Shown piece after piece: positions 3,001-44,335 of a stretch of DNA of 64,000 bases; position 1 is the stretch's first letter, and every line of letters begins with the position of its first letter. The stretch is from positions 320,001 through 384,000 of the forward strand of contig CM000436.1 in assembly GCA_000165345.1 (NCBI GenBank), in the 5' to 3' direction. A program made the position numbers and the translations under genes. The notes beneath the pieces were generated by a model. That model was not told the DNA's origin. It saw nothing but the letters and a program-made list of their open reading frames with translations, and did not search any database.

Positions 3001-3095
3001 ATTTATTAAAATTACCATCTTATAATTCAAAAGAAATCCTTAAATTGAAATTAAGACAAGCAATTTTCAATTCTAAAGGATTTGATTTAAGTTAA
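54..3095 (+). CDS. HECT-domain E3 ubiquitin-protein ligase. The reading frame is open to the window start, so the gene may be 5'-truncated; the first in-frame ATG is at 120.
   Basis: The C-terminal ~350 aa show HECT hallmarks: LRVAFRIIFLDEQGDIEPGIDGGGLLKDF...; the catalytic Cys context PSASTCFNLLKLPSY; and the terminal ...AIFNSKGFDLS a few residues before the stop. The N-terminal two thirds are low-complexity and N/D-rich, with a His7 run. The ORF track begins at a TTG with no upstream in-frame stop. Confidence 0.8.
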   Translation: MALDCACRDETSLKHAINIINLMNDIYFPLNQVPNIIFENIYFYNNIFTKNKVTYLHNALDLCIDKSDHISNDNYNRDHHQFMTKRNQRRNRINIFHDDDDDDDNNNNSNNNICILKKMRFFFLISDDNNDDEDKLQVFHKSQDHEFLEKIYYNNYSNDYHNFQHFCDIMSKSKLKVFHELQNLVLNYLSFDTCWVLVLFLSIHNRIIFNNNGNMNSFLIDIIEGKDNMNIDNNDYYSNNNHIGRLLTLFGISLNHQLQFLDDYEIKKSLEIILLKNSSSNSNNSDFNNDKQIISSKLIPFFNSNEIMIIDNKIISGMNGSEILDNILEDLSKHKNLTMLINYENIQCINKSQKNLLINPFLLINNRNQLNYISLFINNLTFTILKMMMFEIKDKNTGNELNMIYRSQNSNSISINNNNNHHHHHHHLGKLINISIFGELTRRLYQNYLKLNHFQMKLDDPIIKIPWTISEASNLLKPKDVLIKQALHIESLGSFPSNNLGEYGFRLNDEDRNLNNFEEYDDLYEDDDDDNDNISGLTNNINYNDSNINNNYNFNIDNEKRLARLDLLRVFDSTLKYVSNKSKFELLRRVLREMPHLIGFEDRLHFYYHYIAELRFNHYQPELFHEIPSFEIRRTHIIKDGLNNIGRLDPNRLRVAFRIIFLDEQGDIEPGIDGGGLLKDFITSISKELCSESFGLFKSCKDNTIIPREYDSLIEISNKFKDLLIDEPLSLKKSNNILYLFEFLGKIVGKAIYEKILLEIEFNPVFLNSVFEQNNDFTDLLNLDEELYKSLNYIKSLENYQEVKNLCLTFSLTLDLGSLTDVGNNNKHLEIDLIPNGRNIPVNNENKIVYIKLLTHYKLITSIKLQAEAFLRGLSTVIPNESLRLFSPYELQSLISGVYQKLDVNNLRLNTCYTGYTETSQQIIWLWDILENEFSTEEQGEFLLFVTSSRKAPLLGFQHLNPKFGIQIVPDNTRLPSASTCFNLLKLPSYNSKEILKLKLRQAIFNSKGFDLS

Positions 3096-3126
3096 AACTT
3101 TATTTATAATAATAATGTTATAATTA

Positions 3127-4059
3127 TTATTTTTCTAAAGCTTTCTTAATTTCATCATATAATATTAGTACAAGTGCTCCACCTGTTCCTCTTAGTACAT
3201 TTGATAATGAACCTTTAAATAATGCTCCAACTCCTTCTTTTCTAATAATCTTTTTCAAACAATCATAAGCTCCAGTATATAAAACATCTTTCCCTTTCTT
3301 ACCAGCCATCATCATCATTCTTCTACGAATAGTATCAAATGGATAACATATTATACCAGCACTAGTTGTAACAGTTTGTGCAATTATCCATTTATAAAGC
3401 ATATTTTCTTGTTTCTGATTCTTAAAAAACATTTCTTTTGTTGTGTCATATAATCCAAAATAAGCTGCTCTATATACAAAAATTCCTTGTATTGATACAA
3501 AAAATCCTTGATATAAAGATCTAATACCACTTTGTTTTGAAATCTTCATAATGCAATCAAACATTCCCTTAAATTCTTTACTTCCATTCTTACCAATATC
3601 AGTAGCTAATCTTGTTCTTGCAAAATCTAATGGATAAACTATTCCAGAAGATGCAGCACCAGCCAAACCACCTGATAACATATTAACACCAAAAAATTTC
3701 CAGAAATCTGATTCTTTATTATAACGTGGCATCATATCTCTTATCATATCTTTAAATGCAAATCCAAATGCTTGTGTTGGAAAATATCTTATTACATTAG
3801 TTGTATTTCCTCTCCATAAACTTAATATTCCCTGTTCTTTTGATACTCTTCTTAAACAATCAAATATTCCAGCATATCTAGGAATTAAACCTTTAATAAT
3901 ATCTGGATTTGTATCTTGAGTTTGTAGAAGAAGTTTAACTCTTTCTATTGGTGCAACAGCTGTCTTACTAATTGTGGCAGAAATTCCACCTACAATAAAA
4001 TCTGTAAGGAAATTATTTTTTTTCTTTTTATTTTGTTTTTCTTCTTTTTTATTTTCCAT
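3127..4059 (-). CDS. AAC: Mitochondrial-carrier-family ADP/ATP translocase (AAC-like), with a Lys-rich N-terminal extension.
   Basis: Tripartite mitochondrial carrier repeats are present, including [10 protein letters not shown] and [10 protein letters not shown]. The AAC-specific signature RRRMMM occurs in [12 protein letters not shown]. The ORF track starts at a TTG at 4098; the first ATG (MENKKEE...) is at 4059 and gives about 310 aa, typical for AAC. Confidence 0.8.
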
Positions 4060-4340
4060 TTTTAAAAAAATGTTCAGATGATAATTATTTAATTTCAATT
4101 TTCTTTAAAAGTTTTATTATATTAATTTCAATATTACCATATCACACCTTAATATTTCTCAAAAGAATTAATGTTTATATGTTAAATATTATAAACACAT
4201 GTACCAATAAATGTTTATAAATTTAAATACATAAGTGCATTAACAGATATTGAATATTTGTATTTATTTGATTATTCTTATTTTTGTTATTTCTTCCTTT
4301 GAATTTGCATTGATTTAATTTTAAAGTCAAATTTAGAAAT

Positions 4341-4352
4341 TTTTGGCGGGAA
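4341..4352. promoter_or_regulatory. E2F-like site TTTTGGCGGGAA upstream of the ADP/ATP carrier gene.
   Basis: Exact match to the canonical E2F core TTTGGCGGGAA, about 280 bp upstream of the ATG at 4059. Confidence 0.5.
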
Positions 4353-4424
4353 TTCAACCGTTTTTTTTTTTAAATTATTAATTGTCAATTATTTTCAATG
4401 AATTTATAAATTAAATATAAATAT

Positions 4425-6802
4425 TTAATTAGTGCAATATATTTCTTGTGCTGGAATAAGTTCATAATTAGCTCTATATTTTAAATATGCATTTTGACGA
4501 TGACTATTCCATGTTGTTGGAGCTTCTTGTATATTATCGGAAATTATTGTTTGATTATTAGAATTATTTATTCCTGTATTATTTGAATTAATAATATTAG
4601 AAAATGCAATTCTTTGTGCAATTAATGGTAAAATTTCATTGAGAGTTTCAATGAGTGGTATAAAATAGTCTAAAGTTAGTAAATATGTTCCATTACTTAA
4701 TCTTTTAGAATCAAAATTATCAAAATCAAATGATTCATAAGCCATTTGCATTGTTCTCCAGCCTGGAATGGTGTACTTACCATCAAACCATCCAAATGGA
4801 CCCATTTTGTTTTGTTCAGTAATATACCATCTTTGATCATATTTATATGTAACATTTGGTGCAATACAATGATTCATAACTTTAGTAATATTTGAAACTC
4901 CTTTATCATAATTTTTATCTAAATATGTGCTTTTTGGTATTAATAACCTTTTATTCATTAATTTTTGTGCGTGTAAATACTGTTGCTGGTTTTGCATGTT
5001 TTTCATTGATACAGATTTTGTAGTCTTGACTGTTTTCACTGGTGATTTTGTTGTTACTATTGTCACTCTTTTTGTAGTGGTAGTAGTTATTATTATAGGT
5101 TTTTTGGTTGTTGTTACTGTAGGTTTTCTAGTTGTAGTAGTAACTATTGGTTTTCTAGTTGTGGTAGTAGCTGTAGGTTTCTTAGTTGTGGTAGTTGCAA
5201 CTATGGGTTTCTTAGTTGTGGTAGTTGCAACTGTGGGTTTCTTAGTTGTGGTAGTAGCTGTAGGTTTTCTAGTTGTGGTAGTAGCTGTAGGCTTCTTAGT
5301 TGTGTTTGTCGTTCCAATGGGTTTCTTGGTAGTAGTTGTGTTAGTTGTCATTGTGGTTTTCTTAGTTGTGGTTGTAGTTCCAATGGGTTTCTTGGTAGTA
5401 GCTGTATAAGTTGCCACTGTGGGTTTCTTAGTTGTGGTTGTCGTTCCAATAGGTTTCTTGGTAGTAGTTGTATTAGTTGCCACTGTGGGTTTCTTAGTTG
5501 TGGTTGTCGTTCCAATAGGTTTCTTGGTAGTAGTTGTATTACTTGTCACTGTGGGCTTCTTAGTTGTGGTTGCCGTTCCTATGGGTTTCTTGGTAGTAGT
5601 TGTGTTAGTTCCCACTGGCTTTCTTGTTGTTGTTGTTGTTGTTGTAACCGTAGGTTTCTTAGTAGTTGTAAAAGTTGTAGTATTTAATGGTTTTGTTTCT
5701 TTATTTATTTTATCAATAGAACTTTCTTTTTCATTCAATGTTTCATCTCTATCTTTTTTAGTTAAAGATTCCAAAAAACTATTTAACCCATCCATAATTG
5801 TTGAATCACCAGAATTTGTATCTTTATTTGATTCTTCCTGTTGCATTTCTTCCTGCTCAAGTTCTAATTCGCTACTCTCTGAATCTTCAGTATTTGTTTC
5901 CTCATTACTGGTATCTGAATTGGTAACATCTGCAGAAGAAGAAGAAGAAGAAGAAGAAGTAGAAGTAGAAGTAGAAGTAGTAGTAGTAGTCATCTTCGTC
6001 GTTGTCGTCGTTGTTGATTGATTTTTTGAAGATATTGGCCTTTTTGTATTTGTAACACTTATTTGATTTGAAATATGAACCTTTTTTTCATTGTTACTCG
6101 ACATTTTGTCAATATTGTTACTTTTCGAGCTTTCAAATTGATTGTCTATTGTATTGCTACTTACAACTAAAGGCTCTTTATCTCCAATATATCTAACGAT
6201 TGTATCGTTAAAGTTAATTGGTTGGTAGTAAAGATGATCGTTAATTATTGGATTTTTAGCATTAAACCATTTAATTCCCATATTTGTATTAAAAAAAACA
6301 ATTCCTGCAATTGGGTAACTCATTATCAATGGTATTACATATTTTTGAGTAATACTATTACTATGAGTAACTACAACAATCTTTCTTGTTTCAAATTTTA
6401 AACAATTATTTACAAGCCAAAATAAAAATGATGAACTTGAAATTGTTTCAGACTTATTTCCAATTTTCGAATTAGTTAATTTTCCAGATTTTCCATAACC
6501 TGGTGGTGATACTGCTGCTACAGTAAAACCATTCTTATAAGCTTCATCTAATACTTTTGATTTTAACCAAGTATCCGCTATTAATTTTCCAATAAACAAA
6601 ACTAAACCTTTTTCTTCACTCTGATCTTGCTTCATTAATACTATTTCAATATCTAATTCTGATGAACAAGATAAAATTTGAGTTTTTGTAGTTATTAATG
6701 ATTTTGTATTTTTTGTTATACTATTAGATGTTTGTACTTTATCATTATTTTCATAAATATTACTTTCAATAAATATATTATTTGTATCATATGATGAAAA
6801 TA
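4425..6802 (-). CDS. Secreted or membrane mucin-like glycoprotein, main exon. It has an alpha/beta-hydrolase-like N-terminal domain, about 17 tandem copies of an 11-aa Thr-rich repeat (TTTTKKPxxTx), and a Cys/Trp-containing C-terminal domain.
   Basis: This is a 796-aa ORF. The N-terminal part resembles an alpha/beta-hydrolase core: LVLFIGK...GFTVAAVSPPGYGKSG and VVVTHSNS at the nucleophile-elbow position. The centre is a Thr/Lys/Pro O-glycosylation-type repeat encoded by a 33-nt tandem DNA repeat. A probable upstream exon is joined through a 70-nt GTAAGT...TTTTAG intron (see the 6873-7272 feature). Confidence 0.6.
5090..5670. repeat. 33-nt tandem repeat, about 17 imperfect copies, encoding the Thr-rich mucin repeats.
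   Basis: The plus-strand unit is GGTTTCTTAGTTGTGGTAGTAGCTGTAGGTTTT-like and repeats head-to-tail. It explains the spurious antisense poly-Val ORFs at 4927-5409 and 5419-6021. Confidence 0.9.
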
Positions 6803-31709: not shown

Positions 31710-32193
31710 CTTCCTCTACAATGAAAATCTATTATTTCTGCCTTCTCTTTTTATTTCTTTAATTAATAATTAAATAAGAATTTGTATTGTTTAGCCAAGT
31801 ATTAGTAATTATTCTTTTACATATACCCAGTTTAGATTAATAGCAAAAAATGTATATATATTGTGATATAAAGGGAAAATTAAGAAATAAGTTTCAGAGA
31901 ATTTTTGTTTAAAATATCTTAAAGCTCGTACTGTTCAGGGTCTCGATTACATAAATATTGCATATATATTTATATATATACTACATATACATATATATAC
32001 ATAAATATTTACAACAGGTCTAAGTAAACTTCACAGGCTTCAAACACTTTAAAACTTGCAAATTTTCCTGCTGTTCTTTTTTTTTTTGGAAACCTAAAAA
32101 TTACCTTTCCCCCTTAATTTAATTATTTCTTTTCTCCTTACCCTATTACCGTTATTGCTCCTTTATATAAGATTTTTTTTTGAGGGGTAAAAC

Positions 32194-32281
32194 TTTGGCG
32201 CCATACGTGGCGCTTCTTGGCGCCTAAAGTTGAAATTATTATTTTGTGAGAGCATGTAAAGGAGATATAATGTGGGGAAAT
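32194..32281. promoter_or_regulatory. Bidirectional clathrin / centrin promoter: three E2F-like half-sites (TTTGGCGCCA, GTGGCGCT, CTTGGCGCCTAAA) and TGTGGGGAAAT.
   Basis: Positions are 32194-32203, 32208-32215, 32217-32229 and 32270-32281. Confidence 0.55.
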
Positions 32282-32524
32282 AGGTTGTAATTAAAATTGG
32301 AATACAAGGAAAGGAAGAATTAAATAAATTGAGACTAAATAGGCGGAAGATAGATAATAATATATATTAAATTTGGTGAATTTAGTGGAAAATTTACGGC
32401 CTATTTGAGTTTTAAAGTCTGTTAAAAAACGACGGATTATAGCATATATTGAAAGAAAGGGAATTAATTTAAATAAAATAGAGAGAGATAGTTTTCAATA
32501 TCGTTTTAAGAGTAATTTTGAACA

Positions 32525-33022
32525 ATGAAGAGAAGAACATCACCAACTAGAAAGAGAGGAAATGAGTGGCCAGGTTTGACTGATGATGAAATTGAAGAAA
32601 TAAGAAAAACCTTCAATTTATTTGATACTGATGGTTCTGGAACTATTGATCCAAAAGAAATGAAGGCAGCTATGCAAAGTTTGGGATTTGAAAGTCAGAA
32701 TCCAACAATGTATCAATTGATCGCAGATTTGGATAGAGAAGGTTCTTCAGCCATAGATTTTGAAGAATTTTTGGATGCAATAGCATCAAAGCTTGGTGAT
32801 AAGGATAGTAGAGAAGGGATTCAGAAGATATTTGCAATGTTTGATGATGATAAAACGGGAAGTATTACATTGAAGAATTTGAAAAGAGTAGCGCACGAGT
32901 TAGGAGAGACAATGACTGACGATGAACTAAGAGAGATGATTGAGAGAGCAGATAGTAATGGAGATGGTGAAATTAGCTTTGAAGATTTCTATAGTATCAT
33001 GACTAAAAAGACTTTTGTATAA
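32525..33022 (+). CDS. CEN: Centrin (caltractin), an EF-hand protein.
   Basis: 165 aa with four EF-hand loops ([48 protein letters not shown]). It also has the basic N-terminal tail typical of centrins, and is colinear with centrin-1/2. Confidence 0.9.
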
Positions 33023-33092
33023 ATTAAAACTTGAAAATAGTAATATTAGTATTGAAATTTTTGTTCAACTCTGTTTGAATTTATTTCATAAT

Positions 33093-34562
33093 TTATTTTT
33101 TTGAATTACCAGATTCTTGGTCATTTAAATATTTGTTGAGCATCTTAGGAATTTCTTCTTGTATTGAAATACTTGTATCCCATAGAAATGAAAATAGGTG
33201 TATTATTATTGAACATATAGAAATCCCAAAAAGGCTATATATAAGAACTTGATTAGGTATTAGTTTGTAATTAAGCTTTATATTTGATGCTAAGAGGAAT
33301 ATATAATAAAGATCGGATTTAAAAAGCCAAGAATTTGATAAATTTGTAATATATATAATATTAGATATTGGAATTAAGACTATACCAATAATAAAAATCA
33401 TAGAATTCATTGGAGTTTGTGATTTAACTAAAACATGTATTGGTAAACAATAGCATATTTTTTTAGCCAATAGATTCCAAGTATAACATATACATGATCC
33501 AATATATATTGGTAAAATCATTGAGAATATTATAAAAATCATATTAATTAATTGATTACCACTATAATTTGGAGGATTCTTGACAACAATATGAATGATT
33601 AATGTTGCATATATAGATATAGTTAGTAATAATGTAAAGAACATTTGTACTAATTTAATAATAATAAAGGTGATATTTTGTCCTTTAGTCCTGAATCTCT
33701 CCTCCAAATTCTCAAAATATGAGCTTAATGCAAATACCTCACTTTTATATTTATATATTTTTTGTTTAAGAGCTCTTGTTTCCTGCCAAGACTTTAAATA
33801 TTTGCTTGTGTAGAATTCTGATTCAAGTCCTTTGGAGCTTTGATCAAACTTTCTTTTCAGATTCTCTCCTTTATTTGATAGTGCTTTAGAGATTACATAG
33901 ATTTCTTTTTTCTTTTCTTGATATAAATGAATATCAATTAGTTTTGGTCTTCTAATGATTGAAATTAAGTAGTTAATTGGAATCAAAACGCTAGCAACTC
34001 CAATAAATAATACATTAAAAATATACCCAATAAATAATAATAATCCAGCTGTTGCTATGGAGAATGTTCCATTAAAAATTAAAGGATCACTTGCACAATT
34101 AGCTTCATTGATATAACCAAGTAATGTTAATCTTATGCATGTCTCTTTTGAAATGCTACCTAAGTGAATTTCTTTGAAAATTGCATAATTACCACCAATA
34201 AAGATCCAACAAAATAATGTAGATAAGAATGAAGCTAGATATGGAGTGTAAGATCTATTTAGTCCAATTTTTGTATCAAACTGGGTTTCATAATAAAATA
34301 TTGAAAAAGGAATAACCAAAGAAGTGAATAAAATATTCAAATACATCACTACCATAAACAAAGCTCTCATATTAACAGTTCTGAATTCTTGAGACCCAAT
34401 AATTGGATATTCATTAATAATATTCACTGGAACTAACATAAAGTTTATCCATATTAACTGTAATCCTAGAATTACAACTATTCTTGTTACTAAAGCTTGT
34501 GTAAAAAATCCTAAAAAAGTTTGGTGAGTCAAAGTGGGAAATAGCTGAAAAACCTTTAGCAA
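33093..34562 (-). CDS. LMBR1-like multi-pass membrane protein; the true 5' end is probably a spliced micro-exon.
   Basis: About 9 predicted TM helices with a central charged coiled-coil loop (YQEKKKEIYVISK...). The motif IPFSIFYYETQF resembles the conserved LMBR1 PFAYFFxESEG segment. The ORF track start is TTG with no in-frame ATG until residue 42. A candidate ATG micro-exon lies at 34573-34590. Confidence 0.55.
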   Translation of the reverse strand: MLKVFQLFPTLTHQTFLGFFTQALVTRIVVILGLQLIWINFMLVPVNIINEYPIIGSQEFRTVNMRALFMVVMYLNILFTSLVIPFSIFYYETQFDTKIGLNRSYTPYLASFLSTLFCWIFIGGNYAIFKEIHLGSISKETCIRLTLLGYINEANCASDPLIFNGTFSIATAGLLLFIGYIFNVLFIGVASVLIPINYLISIIRRPKLIDIHLYQEKKKEIYVISKALSNKGENLKRKFDQSSKGLESEFYTSKYLKSWQETRALKQKIYKYKSEVFALSSYFENLEERFRTKGQNITFIIIKLVQMFFTLLLTISIYATLIIHIVVKNPPNYSGNQLINMIFIIFSMILPIYIGSCICYTWNLLAKKICYCLPIHVLVKSQTPMNSMIFIIGIVLIPISNIIYITNLSNSWLFKSDLYYIFLLASNIKLNYKLIPNQVLIYSLFGISICSIIIHLFSFLWDTSISIQEEIPKMLNKYLNDQESGNSKK

Positions 34563-34800
34563 GTTTACTTACCTTTTGAATCTTCAGCATCCTCGAAAAT
34601 ATAAATTAACCTTAGATTAATAAATAAAGCGATGGAATTGTAGAATATTATAAAACAAATTAAAATGAAATCCATAAATAATAATTCATAGCCTGTTTCA
34701 AATATTCTATGTTAACTTAAATGTTTTTTCCTTTGTTATTTATTAATAAATGTGAACTTATTTTTTTTTTTTTTTGCACTTCATTTAATTCATTCGTTTA

Positions 34801-34917
34801 AATTACGTCATTTTAAATTTGGCGCCTAAATAAATTCATGAACACTGTACCGGTATTCATGCACAATTTTTTTTTTTTCAGTTAATATATTTATCCACAT
34901 AAATCACACGTAATTAA
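34801..34917. promoter_or_regulatory. Bidirectional LMBR1-like / SMC5 promoter: AATTACGTCA, TTTGGCGCC, GTACCGGTAT, CATGCAC and CACACGTAATTAA.
   Basis: Positions are 34801-34810, 34818-34826, 34848-34857, 34858-34864 and 34904-34917. Confidence 0.55.
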
Positions 34918-35096
34918 AAATAATTGCATTAATCATTTTGCTAAAGAAGGTAATTGAGAAACTTTTTGGAGTTATTTTTCCTCAATTCCATCTTTCCTTT
35001 ATGCAAATTCTAAGAAATATATTATAGTAACTGAATGAATGAGTTGATTGACAAATTTTGAGTTAATGATAATACTGATTAAAATTCATAAATTTA

Positions 35097-38000
35097 ATGA
35101 CTGTAATAAGTAAAAAAGGAAGATTAAAGAAAAATATTTGTGAAAGTGAACATGAAAATGATGATAAAGAAAAACAAGAAGTTAATAAAAGTAATCGAGA
35201 ATCTGGAAAAATCGAAAATGGTACATTAATTTCAATAGAACTAGAGAATTGGATGAATATAAAAGGGCCAACAAAGTATTGTTTTAATAATGGGGTTAAC
35301 ATCATTACAGGATTAAATGGGAGTGGTAAAAGTAGTGTGGCTTGTGGAATTGCAATTTCATTAGGATATGATACTCATATATTAGCTAGAGGTCATTACT
35401 TGTCATCATATATTCGTAATGGAAATACATCATGTAGATTATTAATAGCAATAAATAATGAAAAAGAGCATGAGAATCATTATATATCAGAAATTGAAAG
35501 AGTTATCACAATTGTAGAATCTAATAGAGCTAATAAGTCAAATTTGCAACCAGAAATTAGATCAAGTTGGAAATTAAATGGTAAGAAATGCTTAGAAAGG
35601 GATATAATAGCCTTAAGGAAAGGGTTAAACATTCAATTAGATAATATGGTTGCATTTCTAGCTCAACAAAGAGTTAGTCAGTTTGGTTCTCAAAGTCCTC
35701 AAGAAATATTTATCGATACTTTGAGAATCATTTCCAATGGAGAAAATTTAAAATCCAAAAATTCTCAAAATGAAAATATAATGATTGATACTACTATACT
35801 ATCTGAATATAAATTTAATGAAAATGATTTATTGAATGTATATTACCAATTTTTAAATATATTTAAGGACTCAAAAGATTGTAAATTAAGACTCAGAGAT
35901 CATGAAACAAGATTATCACAATTAAGTAATGAAATATCGAAATCCAAACAAAATGAAATTAAATATATACAATACTTGTTAAATAAAATGGGAATCTATT
36001 TGATCCATTTTTTTCAATCATTGAATGATATTTCAAATGATAAAGTTAGTTTATTAAATTTAGATGAGAGAAAAAAGAAAGTTATTAAAGTTATTACTGA
36101 AACAAGAAATGAACTCAAAAAATTGGAAAATGAGTCTTCAAAGATTTTTAAAGAACTTGAATTGGCTAATAAAAAGAAAGAAGACTTTTTAAGAAATTTA
36201 CAACATGATAAACTTGATACACAATTTAACTCATTAATGAATAATTTAGATCAAGTAATCAAAAAGTTACAAGAAAGTTACACAGATCCAAAGCTTTTAC
36301 TTGAAAGATATCGATTAAAAATGAAAGGAATACAAGATCAGATAATTGATATAGAAAATAAAATAAAGTATAGCATGGAACAATTTGAGAATGAATGGAA
36401 ACCAACATTGGTTAGATGCAAATTATATGAAGAAGATCTCCCTCATAAATTTGATAAAGTTACTGCTGAGAAGAAGAGAAAGCTATTAGGAGAAAGTCTG
36501 AGTGAAGTTTCTACCAAAAAAATAACATTACAAAAAAATATTAAGGAATTTGAGTTTATGCTCTCAAAACTAATTGAAAAGAAAAATTCTATTAATTCTA
36601 TTAATCCTGTAAACTTTAGAGAAAAGGTTCTGAGAGAAAAGTATCTTAAAAATATTAATCAAAAGGCCTTGTCAAGTTCCAAAAGAGAAAATATTCTTCA
36701 ATATTTTCAAAAGTTGAATGAGTATTCTGCTTTTGAAAATTATTTGCCAAAAAAAAAAGTAATAGGACCAATTGGAAGCTATATTTCTGTTAAGAGTATT
36801 AAATTTCAAACATTAGTTGAAGCATTTCTACAACAATTTCATTATTACTTTATCTCGGAAAGAGAGGACGTTAAATTGTTAACAGAAAGGTACCGTTTAA
36901 ATGTTTTAACATTGTCTAATTCAAAAACACCAATTTACCCAAAACTTGATGATGAAATGAAGAGTCTAGGAATTACAGGATTTCTACATGAACATTTGGA
37001 TTTTGAAGATGATACTATGAAAAACATACTATATCAAATTTCTGCTCAATTCTTCACATGCGTAATTATTGATAATCCAACATTATCAGTTGAAGAAATC
37101 CAAGAAGATCAAATTCTATATAAGATTTCAGATTGGTTTAAAAGAAAATACGATCAACCTGGAAACAAAATATCCAATAATATTCATCTGTTTATTACTC
37201 AACAAAATGTTGAAAATTATCTAGATTCAAAGAATGGAATTTTATTTAAACTTGTAACTTCTATATATAATCCAAATTCAAAAACTATATCGATGATCAA
37301 TCTTGGAGATAAAATGAATACAGTATTATTAAATAAAGATATAGTCAAAGAAGAAAACTTTGAAATTGAGCAAGTTAATCATCAAAAAAGTTCAGTTGAA
37401 ATTGAAATTGAACAGTTAGAATTGAAGATTAAAGAATCTTATAATACTTTTCAAGAGCTTAAGGAACAATACGATGGAGAAACTGCTCTACTTAATATGA
37501 TTACTGAGTGTATTAGTAATGTTCCTTTTTTATTTGAGAAAATATCTAGTTTGAAAAAAAGACTTGTTAATCTTGAAAAAGATATGAAAGAAAATACTCC
37601 AAATGAATCAGAAATCAAATTAAAGAATCAAAAACTCATTAAGTCTGCATTTATGGGTCAAAATCCATTGGATGATTTATCAGAGTCTATCGTTTTTAAA
37701 ACCAGTATATTTAATGAATTAAACAAAATTAATAAACTATTTCTAGAAATTTCTACTCAAGATTTTACTAAAAATAAGGAATTGAATGAAAAAGTTATTC
37801 AATTAAATACTAATTATTCATCATTTCAAAAAGAAATCATTCAAAAAAAAGAAGAAATAAGAAAATTTGAATTAGAAATGAATCAAGTTAATGAAGATTA
37901 TGATAAAATTATATCTAATTTGGATATTAAAAGAAAGGCTTCAATAGATTCTTATCTTCAATACTATTCAACTTATTGTCAATATTATAAGAGATTAAAG

Positions 38001-39023
38001 TATAATGATTTTAACAAAGGTTCTAATTCTAATCATAAATCAAATGAAAATATTTATGAATTTATTTATAATAAAATTGGTAAATGTGAAAATAATCAAT
38101 CTCAAGATCAAAATGATTGTGATAATGATAAAATCAATAGATCAAATTGGGATAATCATATTTCTGATGTTCCAGGTGTTAAATTCTTTTCATTTATAAT
38201 AAATGGAAATAAACCCTCATCAATTAATTGTGAGAAGATTCCTGATTATTGTTTAGAAATGATTAGTCAAGTATCGTCTGAGTTTGGACTTCTTAAATGT
38301 GAAAATTTACAATTTAAAGAAATAATGAATAATACATTAAAATATTCATCAAACTTGAGGAGTTACAATAATCAAATATTAAATCATGGAGAAGAAGAAA
38401 TGAAAGAGAATACTATTCTAGAAGATAATGAAGTTAAAGTAGGAAAAAGAGGTATTAAAAAGATTTCAAAAAATAATTCTTCTAATCATTTAACTCTATT
38501 TGATATTTTACTTGATAATGATGAATATAAAATAAGATATGAAAATCTATTTAATACAATAACTAGCTTAGAAGCCAAGACTCATAATACAAACTTAGAA
38601 AGAATGGCAGATTTAGAACAAGAATTTGAGATTTTAACCAAAGAAAGCCAAGATTTATCTAAAAGGATTATTATATATGAAGATTTTGTTTCTAAACATT
38701 ATAAGAAATGGATTGATCAATTAAAAATGATTGAAGATGTAGTTTCTCATTGTTTTGGAATTTTTATGAGATTTATTAATGATAAACATAATGGAAAGAT
38801 TATTATTCCTTTTATTAATAATTTTCTACTTTTTATGAATACTTCAATGGATACAGGTAATGAAGCTATATTTAATTATTTTGTTGATAATTTTGAAAAT
38901 GATTCAAAACTTAATATAATGGTTAGATTTAGTCCTGATGAAGATTTAAGATTATTTTCATCAAACTCAATTTCAGGAGGTGAACAATCTCTTTGTACTA
39001 TTCTTTTTATATTATCTTTACAG
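35097..39023 (+). CDS. SMC5: Structural maintenance of chromosomes protein 5 (SMC5), exon 1.
   Basis: The N-terminal Walker A head (ITGLNGSGKSSVACGIAISLG) is followed by about 1000 aa of coiled coil with a hinge, then the signature motif SGGEQSLCTILFILSLQ. The exon ends at the CAG|GTAAGT donor (39023/39024). Confidence 0.8.
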
Positions 39024-39076
39024 GTAAGTTTGAATGAATAAATATGGAAATATATTTATTTTTCTATCATTTATAG

Positions 39077-39379
39077 GGACTTTGTAATGGAAATTCATTC
39101 AAGTTATTTGATGAAATTAATCAAGGATTAGATAATTCACGAGAAATTAAACTAATGGAACTTTTAGATATTTTAACAAATAAAGAGAAAACCGAAAATT
39201 TATTAAAATTTAAAGAATATGAAAATAATTATGGAGAAATATATGAGAATATGAAAATTTCATCAAATTATAAAGATAATCAAATAATTATTATTACTCC
39301 ACATATCTTCCCAGGAGTAATTTTTGAGAACTTTTCAATACACTTTGTATTAAATGGTCCAGGATTTATAATAAATTAG
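39077..39379 (+). CDS. SMC5: SMC5, exon 2 (Walker B / D-loop and C-terminal tail).
   Basis: After the 53-nt intron (GTAAGT...TTTATAG, 39024-39076) the frame continues GLCNGNSFKLFDEINQGLD. This is the SMC5-type Walker B (DEINQGMD in SMC5 versus DEFDVFMD in SMC6). The exon is in phase with exon 1 and ends at TAG 39377-39379. Confidence 0.7.
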   Translation, partial: GLCNGNSFKLFDEINQGLDNSREIKLMELLDILTNKEKTENLLKFKEYENNYGEIYENMKISSNYKDNQIIIITPHIFPGVIFENFSIHFVLNGPGFIIN

Positions 39380-39392
39380 TTCAAGTGTATTT

Positions 39393-40787
39393 TTATTCGA
39401 GAAATTCTTGAAAAAATTTATACCAATTTGGATTATCTTGTATTCTTACAATAATGAATCCAATAGAGCCAAATCTCCAAATTAAATTTAAAGCAAAAGA
39501 AATTCTTCTAATTAAGCTGGCTAATTTAGGAGAATCAATATTACCATGGAAATTATTATGATTACCAATTCCAACACAAAAATAAATATCAACAAATTTT
39601 CCTTTAAATGATTTTTGTGAAAGTTCAAGTTCTTGTTGAGTAATTTTAAAATGATGAATATTTTTTGACAAGATTTCTTCCATATTAGCTTGGAATTTAT
39701 ATTTAATTATCATAATAATAGTAAATATGACTAAATTAATGGTTTCATTTCTATTAAAATTATGTAGATCAACAACAACTTGAGAATTATGATTTGATTT
39801 GGTTGAAAAGTAATCAATAAAATAATTATTTTGTGAGTTAAAAACAAGATTAAAGAGTCTTTTTTGAAGATTAAGTCTATCAATTTTAATAGAATTAATT
39901 TTATGTTTAAATTCTTGACTCTTTATTGCTTTATATTCACTTATATTAGAGTTATTTAAGATATTATTAAGTTCAGAATATTTTAATTTCAAAGACAAAT
40001 TCAAATCTTGAATTTGATTTTGTAGAATTTCTATTTCTTTCAAACTCTCTTTACTCCTAGAACTAAGTTTCATGTCTTTAATTTGTATTGAATTTGATTC
40101 ATTTCCAGGTCCTTCTGGTGGCCAATTTTTATTTTTTCCTTCTTTAACTTTGAATAATCTTGGAGAATTGAATATTTTAGTTAGAATACTACTAAATATA
40201 TTCATTTCATAATGAATTAACTCACTTTGAATCTCAAAAATATTCCATGGTTTTTTCCCCAGCTTAAGAATATCCCTTTGTATGCTATTATTATTATTAT
40301 TACTACTCTTTAAGGGATTTATCGGATTACTACTAGTTTGTTGATTTTGCGTGCACACAGACAAATATGACAATTTATTATTTTGTTTAAGAAAATCTTT
40401 CATATAAGTATCCAATTCATCATTTTGAATCTGATTAAAGTAGAAATTTAAGTTCAAATATCTATTAAAATCTATATTATTATTTAAATCCTGATATTGT
40501 TTGTCAAATTCACCGGAATTTTTAGAAGATTCTTGAAAATCGAACTGACAACAATCATTATAACCCTCTTTGATTGAAATTTCAGATAACTTCTCATATA
40601 ATTCGTTTATAATATTATTCATTTCATTTTCGTAACTATACTCTTTATCGCAGCTAGATAACTGTTTACATAGCTTAAGGTTTTCCTTAACTAAGTAATC
40701 AAAAATGTCTCCTATTATAACATCAGGGATATCACTAAAAATCTCAGACATATGCTTAACCACATTGTCACGAGTGTATGATTTCAT
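39393..40787 (-). CDS. Smr (small MutS-related) domain protein with an N-terminal CUE-like region.
   Basis: The C-terminal ~110 aa match the Smr domain pattern: VVVDLHNF...ETINLV and FCVGIGNHNNFHGN, compared with Smr LDLHG...GKGNHS. The stop is only 13 bp from the SMC5 stop on the other strand. Confidence 0.6.
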   Translation of the reverse strand: MKSYTRDNVVKHMSEIFSDIPDVIIGDIFDYLVKENLKLCKQLSSCDKEYSYENEMNNIINELYEKLSEISIKEGYNDCCQFDFQESSKNSGEFDKQYQDLNNNIDFNRYLNLNFYFNQIQNDELDTYMKDFLKQNNKLSYLSVCTQNQQTSSNPINPLKSSNNNNNSIQRDILKLGKKPWNIFEIQSELIHYEMNIFSSILTKIFNSPRLFKVKEGKNKNWPPEGPGNESNSIQIKDMKLSSRSKESLKEIEILQNQIQDLNLSLKLKYSELNNILNNSNISEYKAIKSQEFKHKINSIKIDRLNLQKRLFNLVFNSQNNYFIDYFSTKSNHNSQVVVDLHNFNRNETINLVIFTIIMIIKYKFQANMEEILSKNIHHFKITQQELELSQKSFKGKFVDIYFCVGIGNHNNFHGNIDSPKLASLIRRISFALNLIWRFGSIGFIIVRIQDNPNWYKFFQEFLE

Positions 40788-40986
40788 TATTTATTCTTAA
40801 TATTACTTTTAATTAAATTATTAAGTGAAATTTTGTCCCCAAAACAATCCAACTCAACTAGACCTCAAACACCATATAAATTACCGTTCACTATTCCATT
40901 CATCCTAATAATGGATAGCTTTTTTTTTTTTAATAAAAAATTAAAATTTATTCTAATAAATTAATTTTTTTTCCCCCGAAACCATA

Positions 40987-41293
40987 TTCCCGCTCAAAGT
41001 CACCTGGTACATGTGAAAAAGGATGTGTGCAATGGTAGAGACTGACATTTGTGACAATGGAACTCAGTAATTTAAAAAGAAAAAGAAAAGAAAATTCTTT
41101 TTAACTCAGATATTTAAACATATTTCCGTTCATTAATAATAATAATAATAAAATATAAATATATATGTTAAAAATAAATATTTATTGAAATTATTTAATT
41201 AAAAATTAAAATAATTGGATCCACATAAATTATTTTATTATAATTACGTGTATTAATAAAAAACACCGGTATATGCAAGTAAAATTTGCATGT
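40987..41293. promoter_or_regulatory. Smr / calpain divergent promoter region: TTCCCGC (E2F-like, reverse), TAATTACGTG, ACACCGGTAT and TTTGCATGT.
   Basis: Positions are 40987-40993, 41241-41250, 41263-41272 and 41285-41293. Confidence 0.45.
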
Positions 41294-41623
41294 AAAAATA
41301 GCTTACGTGGCATGATTTTTATTTTTATTTTTTTATTTTAAATTAATAATTTAAGTATAAAGAATAAATGGTAAATTAATTTTTTTAATTCAAATGAATA
41401 ATGTCAATTGGTAAAGATAAATATCTAATCGTGAATTTTTGGTACTTTTATTTCTAATATAATATAATTAAAGAAAATTGTTAGATGGAATTAATAAATT
41501 TGGATGAGTGAAAATATTTTCTGTCAAGTTAAAATAGTAAAAAGTACAAGTAAAAAGAAAAATTATGTTGATAAAAGTTAAATAATAACATTTCAAATAT
41601 AATAAATTAAAAATTTTGGAAAT

Positions 41624-44335
41624 ATGTTAATATCAAAGTTATTTAAAAGAAAAACAACAAATACATTGAATCATGTGGATAATGTAAATGTTGAGACTGA
41701 TCAACTATTTGAACTTAAAAAAATGGTTATGGAAAAATACAAAAATTTGATGAGATTAAAAAGAAATGATCAAGATCAAATAGATTATCGAATTTATATA
41801 GAATCATCATTTATCAATGATTCTTGTTTTTTGCCTCCACTTTTAATCGATAAAAAACCAGGAACAAAGCTTACAAAGTTAAATAATGATCAAGCACAAT
41901 TTTTGTTGTTAATGTTATTATATAATCAACAACTATCATTTCAAGAGAATATAATAAATCAATCAATTAATATTTGTTTGAAGGAACAATATATATTAAT
42001 AGTAGAACAAATGGTGAGAAGTTTAATGTTATCAAAGAAACAGAAAAAAATGGTAGTAAAATGGAAGAAGTTGAATAGTAATGTAGAATTATTTCCAATT
42101 AGTAATTTTGTGAATATTACTTCGAGTAATATAATACAAGGATTTATTGGAGATTGTTCATTTATTGTTGTGTTATCTTTATTGCTAGAGCATGAGAAGA
42201 AATTTGATTCAAATTTATTATCAAATCTGATAAGTCCAATAAAATTCTCAATAAAGAATCAAAATCATCAGAATCAAAATAATACTAATGGTTATCAAAA
42301 AATTCATAATTATGAAAATAATAATAATAATATTAATGAATTGGATGATGTGTTATGTCTTTATAAATGTAAATTATTAATTAATGGTATTTGGAGAAAT
42401 ATTTTTGTGGATAGTTTAATTCCTATTGATTCTGGAAATAATTGTTTGTTATCACATTTTGATTGTAATAAATATTATGGTATAACCTTAATTGAAAAAG
42501 CATATTTAAAAGTTATGGCAAATAGATATGATTCTGTTGAAAGTAATCCTTCAATAGATTTATATTATTTAACAGGATGGATACCTGAAACTATTTCTAT
42601 TAAATCACATTATGAAAAAAAAGGGAGCTATTTTCTAAATTTATGGAATCGTATAAAAAAGCCAATACAAAATGGATATTGCTTAATGGCTTTGGGTACT
42701 AATGAAATTAATTCAAATATTGATAATCATGCAAGATTAAGTCCTAGTAATTATAGAAGTTCTCGAGATAAACCACTTAATAGATTTGATAATGAAATTG
42801 ATAATAATCAGTTAGAATATAAGTTTATTTCAAAAGAAGATATTTGTAAAAAAACTGGATTAGTAACTAAACATGCATATCAAGTTTTAAGAATTGTTGA
42901 ACTAGTTAATCAAGAAAATGATTCTATTCGCAGATTAATTTTATTAAGAAATCCATGGGGAAAAATCAGTTGGAAAGGAAAATTCTCAAAATATGATAAA
43001 GAAATATGGACTAATGAACTTGTAGAATTATTAGGTAATCATTTTAATTATAAAGTTAATCAAGATAATGGAATTTTTTGGATTGAATGGAATGATATAT
43101 TGAAATGGTTTTCACATATATATTTAGCTTGGGATCCTGAAAAAGTATCCAAACATTTAAAAAAAGTACATGGTAAATGGTTACCATGCCCACATAATTC
43201 AATATTAAAAGATGATTTACATCTTTTATATTTTTATCCTCAATATAAGTTATCTATTGATACTAAGTTAATAAATAAATTAAAAATGGATCATTCAAAT
43301 TTATTGAATGAAAAAGAATTCATTAATCGAGACATTAATAAACCACAATCAAATATTAATGATTATAAAAGATTAAAGTTACATTTTGATTCAAATCAAA
43401 ATGATTATATTGAAGATTATTCAAAAAATAATCTATTTGTAAGAAAATGGAAAAAATCCGATATTATTGATTATGAAAATTATAATGTTGGTGATATTTG
43501 GATTGTATTAAATAGACATATTGATTATTTGGAAGCAAAAGAATTTGATGATAATTACAATAAGCCAGATATTAATAATATACCTTTTATGTCAATAAGT
43601 ATATTTAGAGGTAGAAGCCGAATAGTCACTCAAGAAAGGTTACCAATTATGCAAGGTGTCTATAGTAATGGTAATGTAATTACATTCAAAACAAGTATTT
43701 TTCAATTATTAAGAGAATATGAACATTTTGATTTACAAGAAAATAAAGATTTTGTATTAGTTATTACTCAATATCAAAGTAATAAAAGTTTTAATTATAC
43801 ATTAAATATATATAGTAATTTTGAAATGAGTATTAAGTTATTGGATTCTTATTTTCAAAAGATTATATATCCTATTAGTAATAATTATAGTTTTATAGAA
43901 ATTAATGGTAAAATTCTACATTATAATTATAGTGAAAGATATTATATTAGTTTAATGAGAAATTCAAAAATTAAATTGGTTCCTGCTATATCTAATAAAT
44001 ATTTTAATTTAAAAAGCGAAACAGATAAAGTAAATACTTTAAATTCATTTAAAAGTGAGTTATCTGATGAACATTTCAGAGTTTTAATATTATTAGAAAT
44101 TAAAGAAAAATGTAATAATTTCAAGTTAAGGATTTTTCCAGAAACCTTTGATGAACAAGACAAAATCACTAAATTGAGTTCCAGTAATGATTTATATAAT
44201 AATAGTAATTGTAAATTTACTACATCCATTTGCAGTTATGGTAATTACTTTATTTTGATTGATTTCAAAGAAAAACAACAAGATTTTGTAAAAGGCAACT
44301 TTTTTAAGCTTATTATTTATTATCAAAAAATTTAA
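41624..44335 (+). CDS. Calpain-like cysteine protease.
   Basis: The catalytic triad context is conserved: QGFIGDCSFIVVLSLL (Cys), TKHAYQVLRIV (His) and LILLRNPWGKISWKG (Asn). A long C-terminal non-catalytic extension follows. Confidence 0.8.
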   Translation: MLISKLFKRKTTNTLNHVDNVNVETDQLFELKKMVMEKYKNLMRLKRNDQDQIDYRIYIESSFINDSCFLPPLLIDKKPGTKLTKLNNDQAQFLLLMLLYNQQLSFQENIINQSINICLKEQYILIVEQMVRSLMLSKKQKKMVVKWKKLNSNVELFPISNFVNITSSNIIQGFIGDCSFIVVLSLLLEHEKKFDSNLLSNLISPIKFSIKNQNHQNQNNTNGYQKIHNYENNNNNINELDDVLCLYKCKLLINGIWRNIFVDSLIPIDSGNNCLLSHFDCNKYYGITLIEKAYLKVMANRYDSVESNPSIDLYYLTGWIPETISIKSHYEKKGSYFLNLWNRIKKPIQNGYCLMALGTNEINSNIDNHARLSPSNYRSSRDKPLNRFDNEIDNNQLEYKFISKEDICKKTGLVTKHAYQVLRIVELVNQENDSIRRLILLRNPWGKISWKGKFSKYDKEIWTNELVELLGNHFNYKVNQDNGIFWIEWNDILKWFSHIYLAWDPEKVSKHLKKVHGKWLPCPHNSILKDDLHLLYFYPQYKLSIDTKLINKLKMDHSNLLNEKEFINRDINKPQSNINDYKRLKLHFDSNQNDYIEDYSKNNLFVRKWKKSDIIDYENYNVGDIWIVLNRHIDYLEAKEFDDNYNKPDINNIPFMSISIFRGRSRIVTQERLPIMQGVYSNGNVITFKTSIFQLLREYEHFDLQENKDFVLVITQYQSNKSFNYTLNIYSNFEMSIKLLDSYFQKIIYPISNNYSFIEINGKILHYNYSERYYISLMRNSKIKLVPAISNKYFNLKSETDKVNTLNSFKSELSDEHFRVLILLEIKEKCNNFKLRIFPETFDEQDKITKLSSSNDLYNNSNCKFTTSICSYGNYFILIDFKEKQQDFVKGNFFKLIIYYQKI

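What the first reader, a model, noticed from the sequence alone, without database searches (positions are those of the whole stretch)
39000..39100. 53-nt intron splits SMC5 between the signature motif and Walker B.
The long ORF ends six codons after ...SGGEQSLCTILFILSLQ with a consensus donor CAG|GTAAGT at 39023/39024. A TTTATAG acceptor ends at 39076. The next exon resumes in phase 0 with GLCNGNSFKLFDEINQGLD, the SMC5-type Walker B / D-loop. An unspliced read would lack Walker B, so an SMC ATPase needs the intron. This is one of the few spliced genes in the window, and automated callers would probably truncate it.
Basis: partly seen in the sequence, partly recalled or inferred. Interest (0 to 1): 0.6.

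Follow-up and report, generated by a model that had tools for sequence, protein, structure and literature searches.

The report
Known 53-nt intron in Cryptosporidium SMC5
The 53-base intron is real and is needed to make a complete SMC5 DNA-repair ATPase in Cryptosporidium parvum, but it is an ordinary intron that current public annotations of this genome already include.

Summary
ORF 35097..39041 (+) stops five codons after ...SGGEQSLCTILFILSLQ. CAG|GTAAGT lies at 39023/39024 and TTTATAG ends at 39076. Removing the 53 nt joins exon 2 (39077..39379) in phase 0, giving a 1409-aa protein.

The spliced protein aligns without a break across the junction to yeast Smc5 and to Plasmodium, plant and fungal SMC5. 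Walker B, the D-loop and the C-terminal Q/TP/NG motifs all lie in exon 2.

All ten Cryptosporidium species examined have a phase-0 GT..AG intron at the same codon boundary. Its length runs from 53 to 132 nt, it diverges faster than the flanking exons, and read-through reaches a stop in every species.

The window is identical to C. parvum assembly CP029787.1, where exactly this two-exon, 1409-aa model is already deposited. C. hominis and C. tyzzeri carry equivalent 1409-aa models.

I could not obtain transcript evidence with these tools. Verdict: real, correctly interpreted, ordinary, already known.

The parts
35097..39023 (+). SMC5 exon 1 (1309 codons): N-terminal head half, coiled-coil arms, hinge region, and the C-terminal head up to the invariant Q after the signature motif
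   Evidence: ORF list and translation. Pfam SMC_N matches at 3.5e-19 across aa 44-1343. Yeast Smc5 aligns to aa 18-213.
35310..35333 (+). Walker A / P-loop, GLNGSGKS (aa 72-79)
   Evidence: Read from the translation. Aligned to yeast Smc5 GPNGSGKS.
38973..38984 (+). ABC signature motif SGGE (aa 1293-1296)
   Evidence: Sequence. Invariant in the SMC5 alignment.
39024..39076 (+). 53-nt phase-0 GT-AG spliceosomal intron. Donor GTAAGT at 39024-39029, acceptor TTTATAG at 39070-39076, in-frame TAA at 39039-39041 on read-through.
   Evidence: The position is conserved in 10 Cryptosporidium species with lengths of 53-132 nt. The annotated gene range of 4283 nt equals 4230 nt of CDS plus 53 nt.
39077..39379 (+). 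SMC5 exon 2 (100 codons plus TAG): the rest of the C-terminal ATPase head
   Evidence: Translation. Continuous alignment to yeast, Plasmodium, plant and fungal SMC5.
39098..39115 (+). Walker B, FKLFDE (aa 1317-1322)
   Evidence: D and E are invariant in alignment A1. Aligned to yeast FRVVDE.
39116..39133 (+). D-loop, INQGLD (aa 1323-1328)
   Evidence: N, Q, G and D are invariant in alignment A1.
39281..39304 (+). Conserved C-terminal head strand QIIIITPH (aa 1378-1385), matching SMC5 Q-x-F-L-[IL]-T-P-K
   Evidence: Q, T and P are invariant in alignment A1.

Best explanation
This is the two-exon SMC5 gene of Cryptosporidium parvum (35097..39379, + strand). A canonical 53-nt, phase-0 spliceosomal intron (39024..39076) interrupts the coding sequence for the C-terminal half of the ATPase head. 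It sits directly after the invariant Gln that follows the signature motif.

Splicing joins ...SGGEQSLCTILFILSLQ to GLCNGNSFKLFDEINQGLD.... This restores Walker B, the D-loop and the C-terminal head motifs, which together with the N-terminal Walker A form the ATP-binding head of an SMC protein. Unspliced mRNA would terminate after five extra codons and give a protein unable to hydrolyse ATP.

Shown here: the sequence anatomy, the homology across the junction, conservation of the intron across the genus, and the existence of identical deposited gene models. Inferred: that the intron is actually removed in vivo, and that the protein acts in an Smc5/6 complex.
For: 1. **Anatomy.** All coordinates are exact.

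2. **Homology across the junction.** The spliced protein aligns uninterrupted to yeast Smc5: SLQ|GLCNGNSFKLFDEINQGLDNSRE against [25 protein letters not shown]. It also aligns to Plasmodium, plant and fungal SMC5 with SGGE, Q, F, DE, NQG-D, Q, TP and NG invariant.

3. **Conservation across the genus.** Ten species were compared: C. parvum, meleagridis, chipmunk genotype I, ubiquitum, canis, felis, bovis, ryanae, serpentis and muris.
   - All have a GT..AG intron at the identical codon boundary.
   - Lengths are 53, 53, 76, 69, 79, 108, 63, 97, 132 and 131 nt, with no respect for reading frame.
   - The donor is GTAAGT in 8 of 10.
   - Read-through reaches a stop after 2-30 codons in every species.
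   - Identity to C. parvum is 0.38-0.91 in the intron against 0.71-0.98 in the flanking exons.

4. **Independent annotations.** The annotated gene ranges in C. ubiquitum, C. canis and C. serpentis imply exactly the intron lengths I derived.

5. **Already deposited.** The identical 1409-aa model exists for C. parvum (WKS79379.1, KAL5366860.1). [quoted passage not shown] The window equals CP029787.1 with 0 mismatches over 10,283 nt, and the gene is identical in a second assembly.

6. **Typical for the genus.** 84% of Cryptosporidium introns begin GTAAGT and the median length is 61 nt (PMC2483917).
Against: I could not obtain transcript-level evidence for this specific junction. The spliced 28-mer is absent from metagenome contigs. 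The only member of the protein's cluster that comes from Logan alone, without an accession or a name, is the unspliced 1314-aa ORF on a 15.6-kb contig.

No clear branch-point motif is present, although none is known for this genus (PMC2483917). The re-annotation papers say that changed models needed RNA-seq support, but they do not name this gene.
Confidence: 0.95

Rival explanations
1. The unspliced 1314-aa ORF is the real product, as in the 2004 Iowa II model. On this reading Cryptosporidium SMC5 has lost its Walker B, and the downstream open frame is non-coding.
For: Seven deposited annotations carry this truncated form. I have no direct RNA evidence of splicing.
Against: The 100-codon exon 2 is open in all ten species and conserved at the protein level, including Walker B, the D-loop and the TP/NG motifs. 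Chance openness has a probability of about 2.5e-5 in C. parvum alone. The truncated models are simple longest-ORF calls that leave exon 2 in unannotated space of about 350-400 nt before the next gene.
Confidence: 0.02
2. The same donor is used with a downstream acceptor (TTCAAG|, an 80-nt intron). This would delete GLCNGNSFK and resume at LFDEINQGLD.
For: An in-frame AG at +80 exists in C. parvum. The corresponding AG, 27 nt past the main acceptor, is present in eight of the ten species and absent from C. serpentis and C. muris.
Against: That AG lies inside the conserved F-K codons, so its presence is explained by coding constraint. Using it would remove the invariant Phe and shorten the signature-to-Walker-B spacing by 8 residues relative to all other SMC5 proteins. 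The deposited models in C. ubiquitum, C. canis, C. serpentis and C. parvum use the upstream AG.
Confidence: 0.02
3. The break in the reading frame is an assembly or sequencing error (a frameshift), or the C-terminus is supplied by a separate downstream gene.
For: None beyond the abstract possibility. AT-rich homopolymer runs are error-prone.
Against: Two independent C. parvum assemblies have the gene identical over 4283 nt, and nine other species show the same interruption. No indel can restore the frame, because both frames contain stops within the 53 nt and the homologous proteins have no residues to fill the gap. Exon 2's frame opens only at the acceptor's TAG, and its first ATG (39155) is downstream of Walker B and the D-loop.
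Confidence: 0.01

Closest known systems
Deposited C. parvum gene model 'Smc like ABC ATPase' (WKS79379.1 on CP029787.1; KAL5366860.1 on CM109968.1), with 1409-aa cluster members in C. hominis (PPS95387.1, OLQ16892.1, KAL3126350.1) and C. tyzzeri (TRY49695.1)
   Same: The two C. parvum accessions are 100% identical to the spliced model over all 1409 aa. The annotated gene range of 4283 nt implies the same single 53-nt intron. The DNA is identical to the window.
   Different: Nothing. This is the same object.
Saccharomyces cerevisiae Smc5 (PDB 7ylm_A, 7qcd_A, 7tve_E)
   Same: Both have an N-terminal Walker A head half (E=5e-21 overall) and a C-terminal signature motif, Walker B and D-loop that align continuously across the splice junction.
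   Different: The Cryptosporidium protein is about 300 aa longer (1409 against 1093). The extra length lies between the two head halves and includes a low-complexity N/S/Q-rich stretch. There is one extra residue between the signature motif and Walker B. The arms are too diverged to align significantly.
Typical Cryptosporidium GT-AG introns (Irimia & Roy 2008, PMC2483917; Isaza et al. 2015, PMC4637869)
   Same: The GTAAGT donor is found in 84% of the genus's introns. The intron is short (genus median 61 nt, mean 82-99 nt), AT-rich (17% G+C against a mean of 22%), and has no clear branch-point motif.
   Different: It is slightly shorter than the median. Otherwise nothing differs.
SMC5 genes of Plasmodium brasilianum and the plant Macleaya cordata
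   Same: They are orthologous proteins with the same head motifs.
   Different: The Plasmodium gene is intronless. The plant gene has introns 13 residues upstream (SGG|E) and 17 residues downstream (INQ-G, phase 1), but none at the LQ| position. The intron position therefore appears specific to Cryptosporidium among the taxa examined.

Membership tests
SMC5 (Smc5/6 complex subunit) | N-terminal Walker A (GxxGxGKS/T) in an SMC_N head domain | tested here: met
   GLNGSGKS at aa 72-79. Pfam SMC_N matches at 3.5e-19 and AAA_23 at 7.7e-7. Aligned to yeast Smc5 GPNGSGKS.
SMC5 (Smc5/6 complex subunit) | C-terminal signature motif (SGGE), Walker B (hhhhDE) and D-loop at the normal spacing | tested here: met
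   Met only after removing the 53 nt. SGGE is at aa 1293-1296, FKLFDE at 1317-1322 and INQGLD at 1323-1328. The alignment to yeast, Plasmodium, plant and fungal SMC5 is continuous.
SMC5 (Smc5/6 complex subunit) | Closer to SMC5 than to SMC6 or SMC1-4 | tested here: met
   In the PDB search, Smc5 scores 5e-21, archaeal (Pyrococcus-type) Smc head-domain fragments about 5e-7, and SMC6 2.7e-5. Among the hits outside the genus, the named ones are SMC5 from Plasmodium and plants; the rest are unnamed or labelled only hypothetical/uncharacterized. UniRef names the cluster SMC5. No formal phylogeny was run.
SMC5 (Smc5/6 complex subunit) | Two head halves separated by long antiparallel coiled-coil arms and a hinge | tested here: inconclusive
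   The Pfam SMC_N match spans aa 44-1343, so the head halves are about 1100 aa apart. There is no Pfam SMC_hinge hit at E<=1, and the hinge-region alignment to yeast is insignificant. Coiled coils were not explicitly predicted, and the protein exceeds the 1200-aa limit for structure prediction.
SMC5 (Smc5/6 complex subunit) | Forms a complex with SMC6 and Nse subunits | not testable with these tools
   A 2008 gene inventory lists Smc6/Rad18 as present in Cryptosporidium (PMC2488364). No interaction data are available.
U2-type (GT-AG) spliceosomal intron | GT at the 5' end, AG at the 3' end, and an extended donor matching the genus consensus GTAAGT | tested here: met
   The consensus comes from PMC2483917.
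U2-type (GT-AG) spliceosomal intron | Removal restores an uninterrupted reading frame that is homologous across the junction | tested here: met
U2-type (GT-AG) spliceosomal intron | Position conserved in orthologues while length and sequence drift without regard to frame | tested here: met
   Ten species, lengths of 53-132 nt, all three mod-3 classes, and lower identity than the flanking exons.
U2-type (GT-AG) spliceosomal intron | Branch point and polypyrimidine tract | tested here: inconclusive
   By eye, a TTTAT lies 18 nt from the AG and is followed by TTTTTCT. Such matches are trivial in 17% G+C sequence, and the genus has no defined branch-point consensus.
U2-type (GT-AG) spliceosomal intron | Absent from the mature mRNA | not testable with these tools
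   No transcript data were reachable. RNA-seq-guided re-annotations exist but do not name this gene.

The most novel reading that the evidence does not exclude
Retention of the intron might be used as a switch. A premature stop 2-30 codons into the intron is present in all ten species. Regulated retention could therefore produce either an unstable mRNA or a Walker-B-less SMC5 arm in particular life-cycle stages, such as non-replicating sporozoites, and so tune Smc5/6 activity. Nothing here tests this. The conserved stop is also what neutral AT-rich sequence would give.
Probability: 0.03. Interest if true: 0.4.

Novelty: already known. Interest (0 to 1): 0.1.

Why it matters
There is little biological news. 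[quoted passage not shown]

The practical value is in curation:
- The RefSeq Iowa II entry XP_627037.1 (also EAK89346.1 and UniProt Q5CW82) still ends inside the intron and lacks Walker B.
- So do C. hominis CUV07675.1, C. meleagridis KAK9170809.1 and the deposited models for C. sp. chipmunk genotype I, C. felis, C. bovis and C. ryanae.
- Anyone using those entries for phylogeny, domain inventories or drug-target screens would see a defective ATPase.

The comparison of ten species gives exact intron coordinates for correcting these models.

Tried and rejected
- **Spliced junction in metagenome/metatranscriptome contigs.** A scan for the 28-mer found no hits.
- **Transcript-derived ORFs.** I looked in the protein's 90% cluster. 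The only member that comes from Logan alone (no accession, no name) is the unspliced 1314-aa ORF on a 15.6-kb contig.
- **Isaza 2015 supplement.** A search for SMC, RecF and 'structural maintenance' to link this gene to RNA-seq evidence found nothing.
- **Literature on Cryptosporidium SMC5.** The only relevant paper was a 2008 gene inventory. One query was rejected for syntax.
- **GTAAGT enrichment in the window.** It is not enriched, at 22 observed against 24.4 expected, so the donor hexamer alone carries no weight.
- **An ancient intron position.** I tested whether the position is shared outside the genus. It is absent from Plasmodium brasilianum and from the plant Macleaya cordata.
- **Other readings.** The alternative 80-nt acceptor, a frameshift error and a separate downstream gene were each considered and rejected.

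Full report
**Observation.** The + strand ORF 35097..39041 encodes 1314 aa and ends ...SGGEQSLCTILFILSLQ-VSLNE-stop. The codon CAG ends at 39023, GTAAGT occupies 39024..39029 and TTTATAG occupies 39070..39076. The intervening segment is 53 nt at 17% G+C. Exon 1 is 3927 nt and exon 2 (39077..39379) is 303 nt, so the junction is phase 0 and the joined product is 1409 aa. Exon 2 begins GLCNGNSFKLFDEINQGLD. The acceptor's own TAG closes exon 2's frame immediately upstream. The first in-frame ATG of exon 2 is at 39155, beyond Walker B and the D-loop, so those motifs can be translated only through splicing.

**Is it more than chance?** The donor hexamer by itself is not. GTAAGT occurs 22 times in the window against 24.4 expected from shuffles. 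The evidence lies in the combination. A 100-codon open frame in this AT-rich stretch has a chance probability of about 2.5e-5, and it encodes exactly the part of the ATPase head that exon 1 lacks.

**Identity of the gene.**
- Pfam SMC_N matches at 3.5e-19 across aa 44-1343, meaning two head halves about 1100 residues apart.
- Against solved structures, the best hits are yeast Smc5 (7ylm_A, E=5e-21) and a further SMC5 (9lwi_I). SMC6 reaches only 2.7e-5.
- The yeast alignment crosses the splice junction without a break: SKLNIMVRFSPDEDLRLFSSNSISGGEQSLCTILFILSLQ|GLCNGNSFKLFDEINQGLDNSRE against [62 protein letters not shown].
- An alignment with Plasmodium, plant and fungal SMC5 and a fourth, unnamed homologue shows these invariant: SGGE, the Q that ends exon 1, F, DE (Walker B), N-Q-G-x-D (D-loop), and the downstream Q, TP and NG.
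- The spacing between SGGE and DE is 24 residues, one more than in the other SMC5 proteins.

**Comparative test of the intron.** I fetched the orthologous loci of nine further Cryptosporidium species and located the signature motif and the D-loop in each.
- All ten species have a GT..AG segment immediately after the LQ codon, followed by G/A-L/F-C/S....
- The lengths are 53 (C. parvum), 53 (meleagridis), 76 (chipmunk genotype I), 69 (ubiquitum), 79 (canis), 108 (felis), 63 (bovis), 97 (ryanae), 132 (serpentis) and 131 nt (muris). All three mod-3 classes occur.
- The donors are GTAAGT in eight species, GTTAGT in C. bovis and GTATGT in C. ryanae.
- Read-through meets a stop after 2-30 codons in every species.
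- Identity to C. parvum is 0.38-0.91 in the segment against 0.71-0.98 in the 150 nt of exon on either side.

This is the signature of a real intron that was already present in the common ancestor of the gastric and intestinal lineages of the genus. The annotated gene ranges in C. ubiquitum (4248 nt for 1392 aa), C. canis (4150 nt for 1356 aa) and C. serpentis (4563 nt for 1476 aa) imply exactly the intron lengths I derived.

**Outside the genus.** The position is not shared. Plasmodium brasilianum SMC5 is intronless. The plant Macleaya cordata has introns at SGG|E and at INQ-G (phase 1), but none after LQ.

**Already known.** The database search returned a protein 100% identical over all 1409 aa. 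It is named 'Smc like ABC ATPase [Cryptosporidium parvum]' (WKS79379.1, KAL5366860.1). Its gene range in two assemblies is 4283 nt, which equals 4230 nt of CDS plus 53 nt. Window 32097..42379 is identical to GCA_031892065.1 CP029787.1:343749-354031 with 0 mismatches in 10,283 nt. The gene is also identical in GCA_048859185.1. Further 1409-aa models in the same 90%-identity cluster exist for C. hominis (PPS95387.1, OLQ16892.1, KAL3126350.1) and C. tyzzeri (TRY49695.1).

**Literature context.**
- Two re-annotation efforts used RNA-seq and cDNA. One raised the share of intron-bearing C. parvum genes from 4.3% to 10.8% and accepted changed models only with expression support (PMC4637869). The other made more than 1500 updates, including new introns (bioRxiv 10.1101/2021.01.29.428682).
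- Neither text names this gene, and the supplement search found nothing. RNA support for this particular junction is therefore probable but not shown.
- The intron is typical of the genus. 84% of Cryptosporidium introns begin GTAAGT, the median length is 61 nt, and no branch-point consensus is known (PMC2483917).

**The truncation prediction.**
- These models stop in the intron and lack Walker B: the original Iowa II model (EAK89346.1 / XP_627037.1, 1314 aa), C. hominis CUV07675.1 (1314 aa), C. meleagridis KAK9170809.1 (1307 aa), chipmunk genotype I (1301 aa), C. felis (1299 aa), C. bovis (1261 aa) and C. ryanae (1285 aa).
- In the five truncated records fetched as loci (C. meleagridis, chipmunk genotype I, C. 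felis, C. bovis, C. ryanae), exon 2 sits in unannotated space before the next, convergent gene.

**Mechanism.** By established knowledge of SMC and ABC-type ATPases, the head is assembled from the N-terminal Walker A segment and the C-terminal segment carrying the signature motif, Walker B and D-loop. Here Walker A is GLNGSGKS (35310..35333). The signature motif SGGE (38973..38984) is in exon 1, while Walker B FKLFDE (39098..39115) and the D-loop INQGLD (39116..39133) are in exon 2. A protein ending at VSLNE would bind its partner arm but could not hydrolyse ATP. Splicing is therefore obligatory for function. This step is inferred, not measured.

**Rivals.**
- A truly truncated protein is contradicted by protein-level conservation of exon 2 across ten species.
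- A downstream acceptor giving an 80-nt intron would delete nine aligned residues, including an invariant Phe. Its AG is explained by the F-K codons it sits in.
- A sequencing error is excluded by two identical assemblies and nine other species.
- A separate downstream gene is excluded by the lack of a start codon before Walker B.

**Verdict.** The finding is correct in both observation and interpretation. It is an ordinary intron that current annotations already model, so interest is low. The residual value is in correcting the seven truncated orthologue models.

Noticed in passing
window 33093..34675 (- strand); intron 34511..34572: The divergent upstream neighbour is also spliced. A 62-nt GTAAGT...TTTTAG intron joins a 103-nt first exon to the long ORF and gives a 506-aa product whose sequence is rich in long hydrophobic stretches, so probably a membrane protein. 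This matches the annotated product length in L001 and L002. The plain ORF list shows only a TTG-started 489-aa fragment.
   Followed up: partly
window 39379..39393: The SMC5 stop codon ends at 39379. The stop of the convergent 464-aa gene (39393..40787, - strand) is 13 nt away, so the two 3' UTRs must overlap. This illustrates how compact the genome is.
   Followed up: no
window ~35264..35313 (aa 58-72 of SMC5): The C. parvum IOWA-ATCC model QOY39881.1 (1394 aa) has the 53-nt intron right but lacks 15 residues, PTKYCFNNGVNIITG, just before Walker A. No GT-AG pair fits a 45-nt removal there; the nearest is GG..AG. It is therefore either a non-canonical or spurious intron call, or a 45-nt deletion in that assembly. 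It removes the conserved strand leading into the P-loop.
   Followed up: partly
L003 (C. muris DS989727.1) 1501..6073: The C. muris RN66 model (1401 aa) implies 367 nt of introns, against the single 131-nt intron expected. It also lacks about 75 residues of the hinge region that are present in C. serpentis. This is probably a second, spurious intron patched over a frameshift.
   Followed up: no
window 35097..39379 (protein aa ~965-1130): Cryptosporidium SMC5 is 1356-1476 aa when complete, against about 1050-1200 aa in yeast, plants, fungi and Plasmodium. The extra ~300 residues include an N/S/Q-rich low-complexity stretch that varies between species. Its location relative to the arm and hinge was not mapped.
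   Followed up: no
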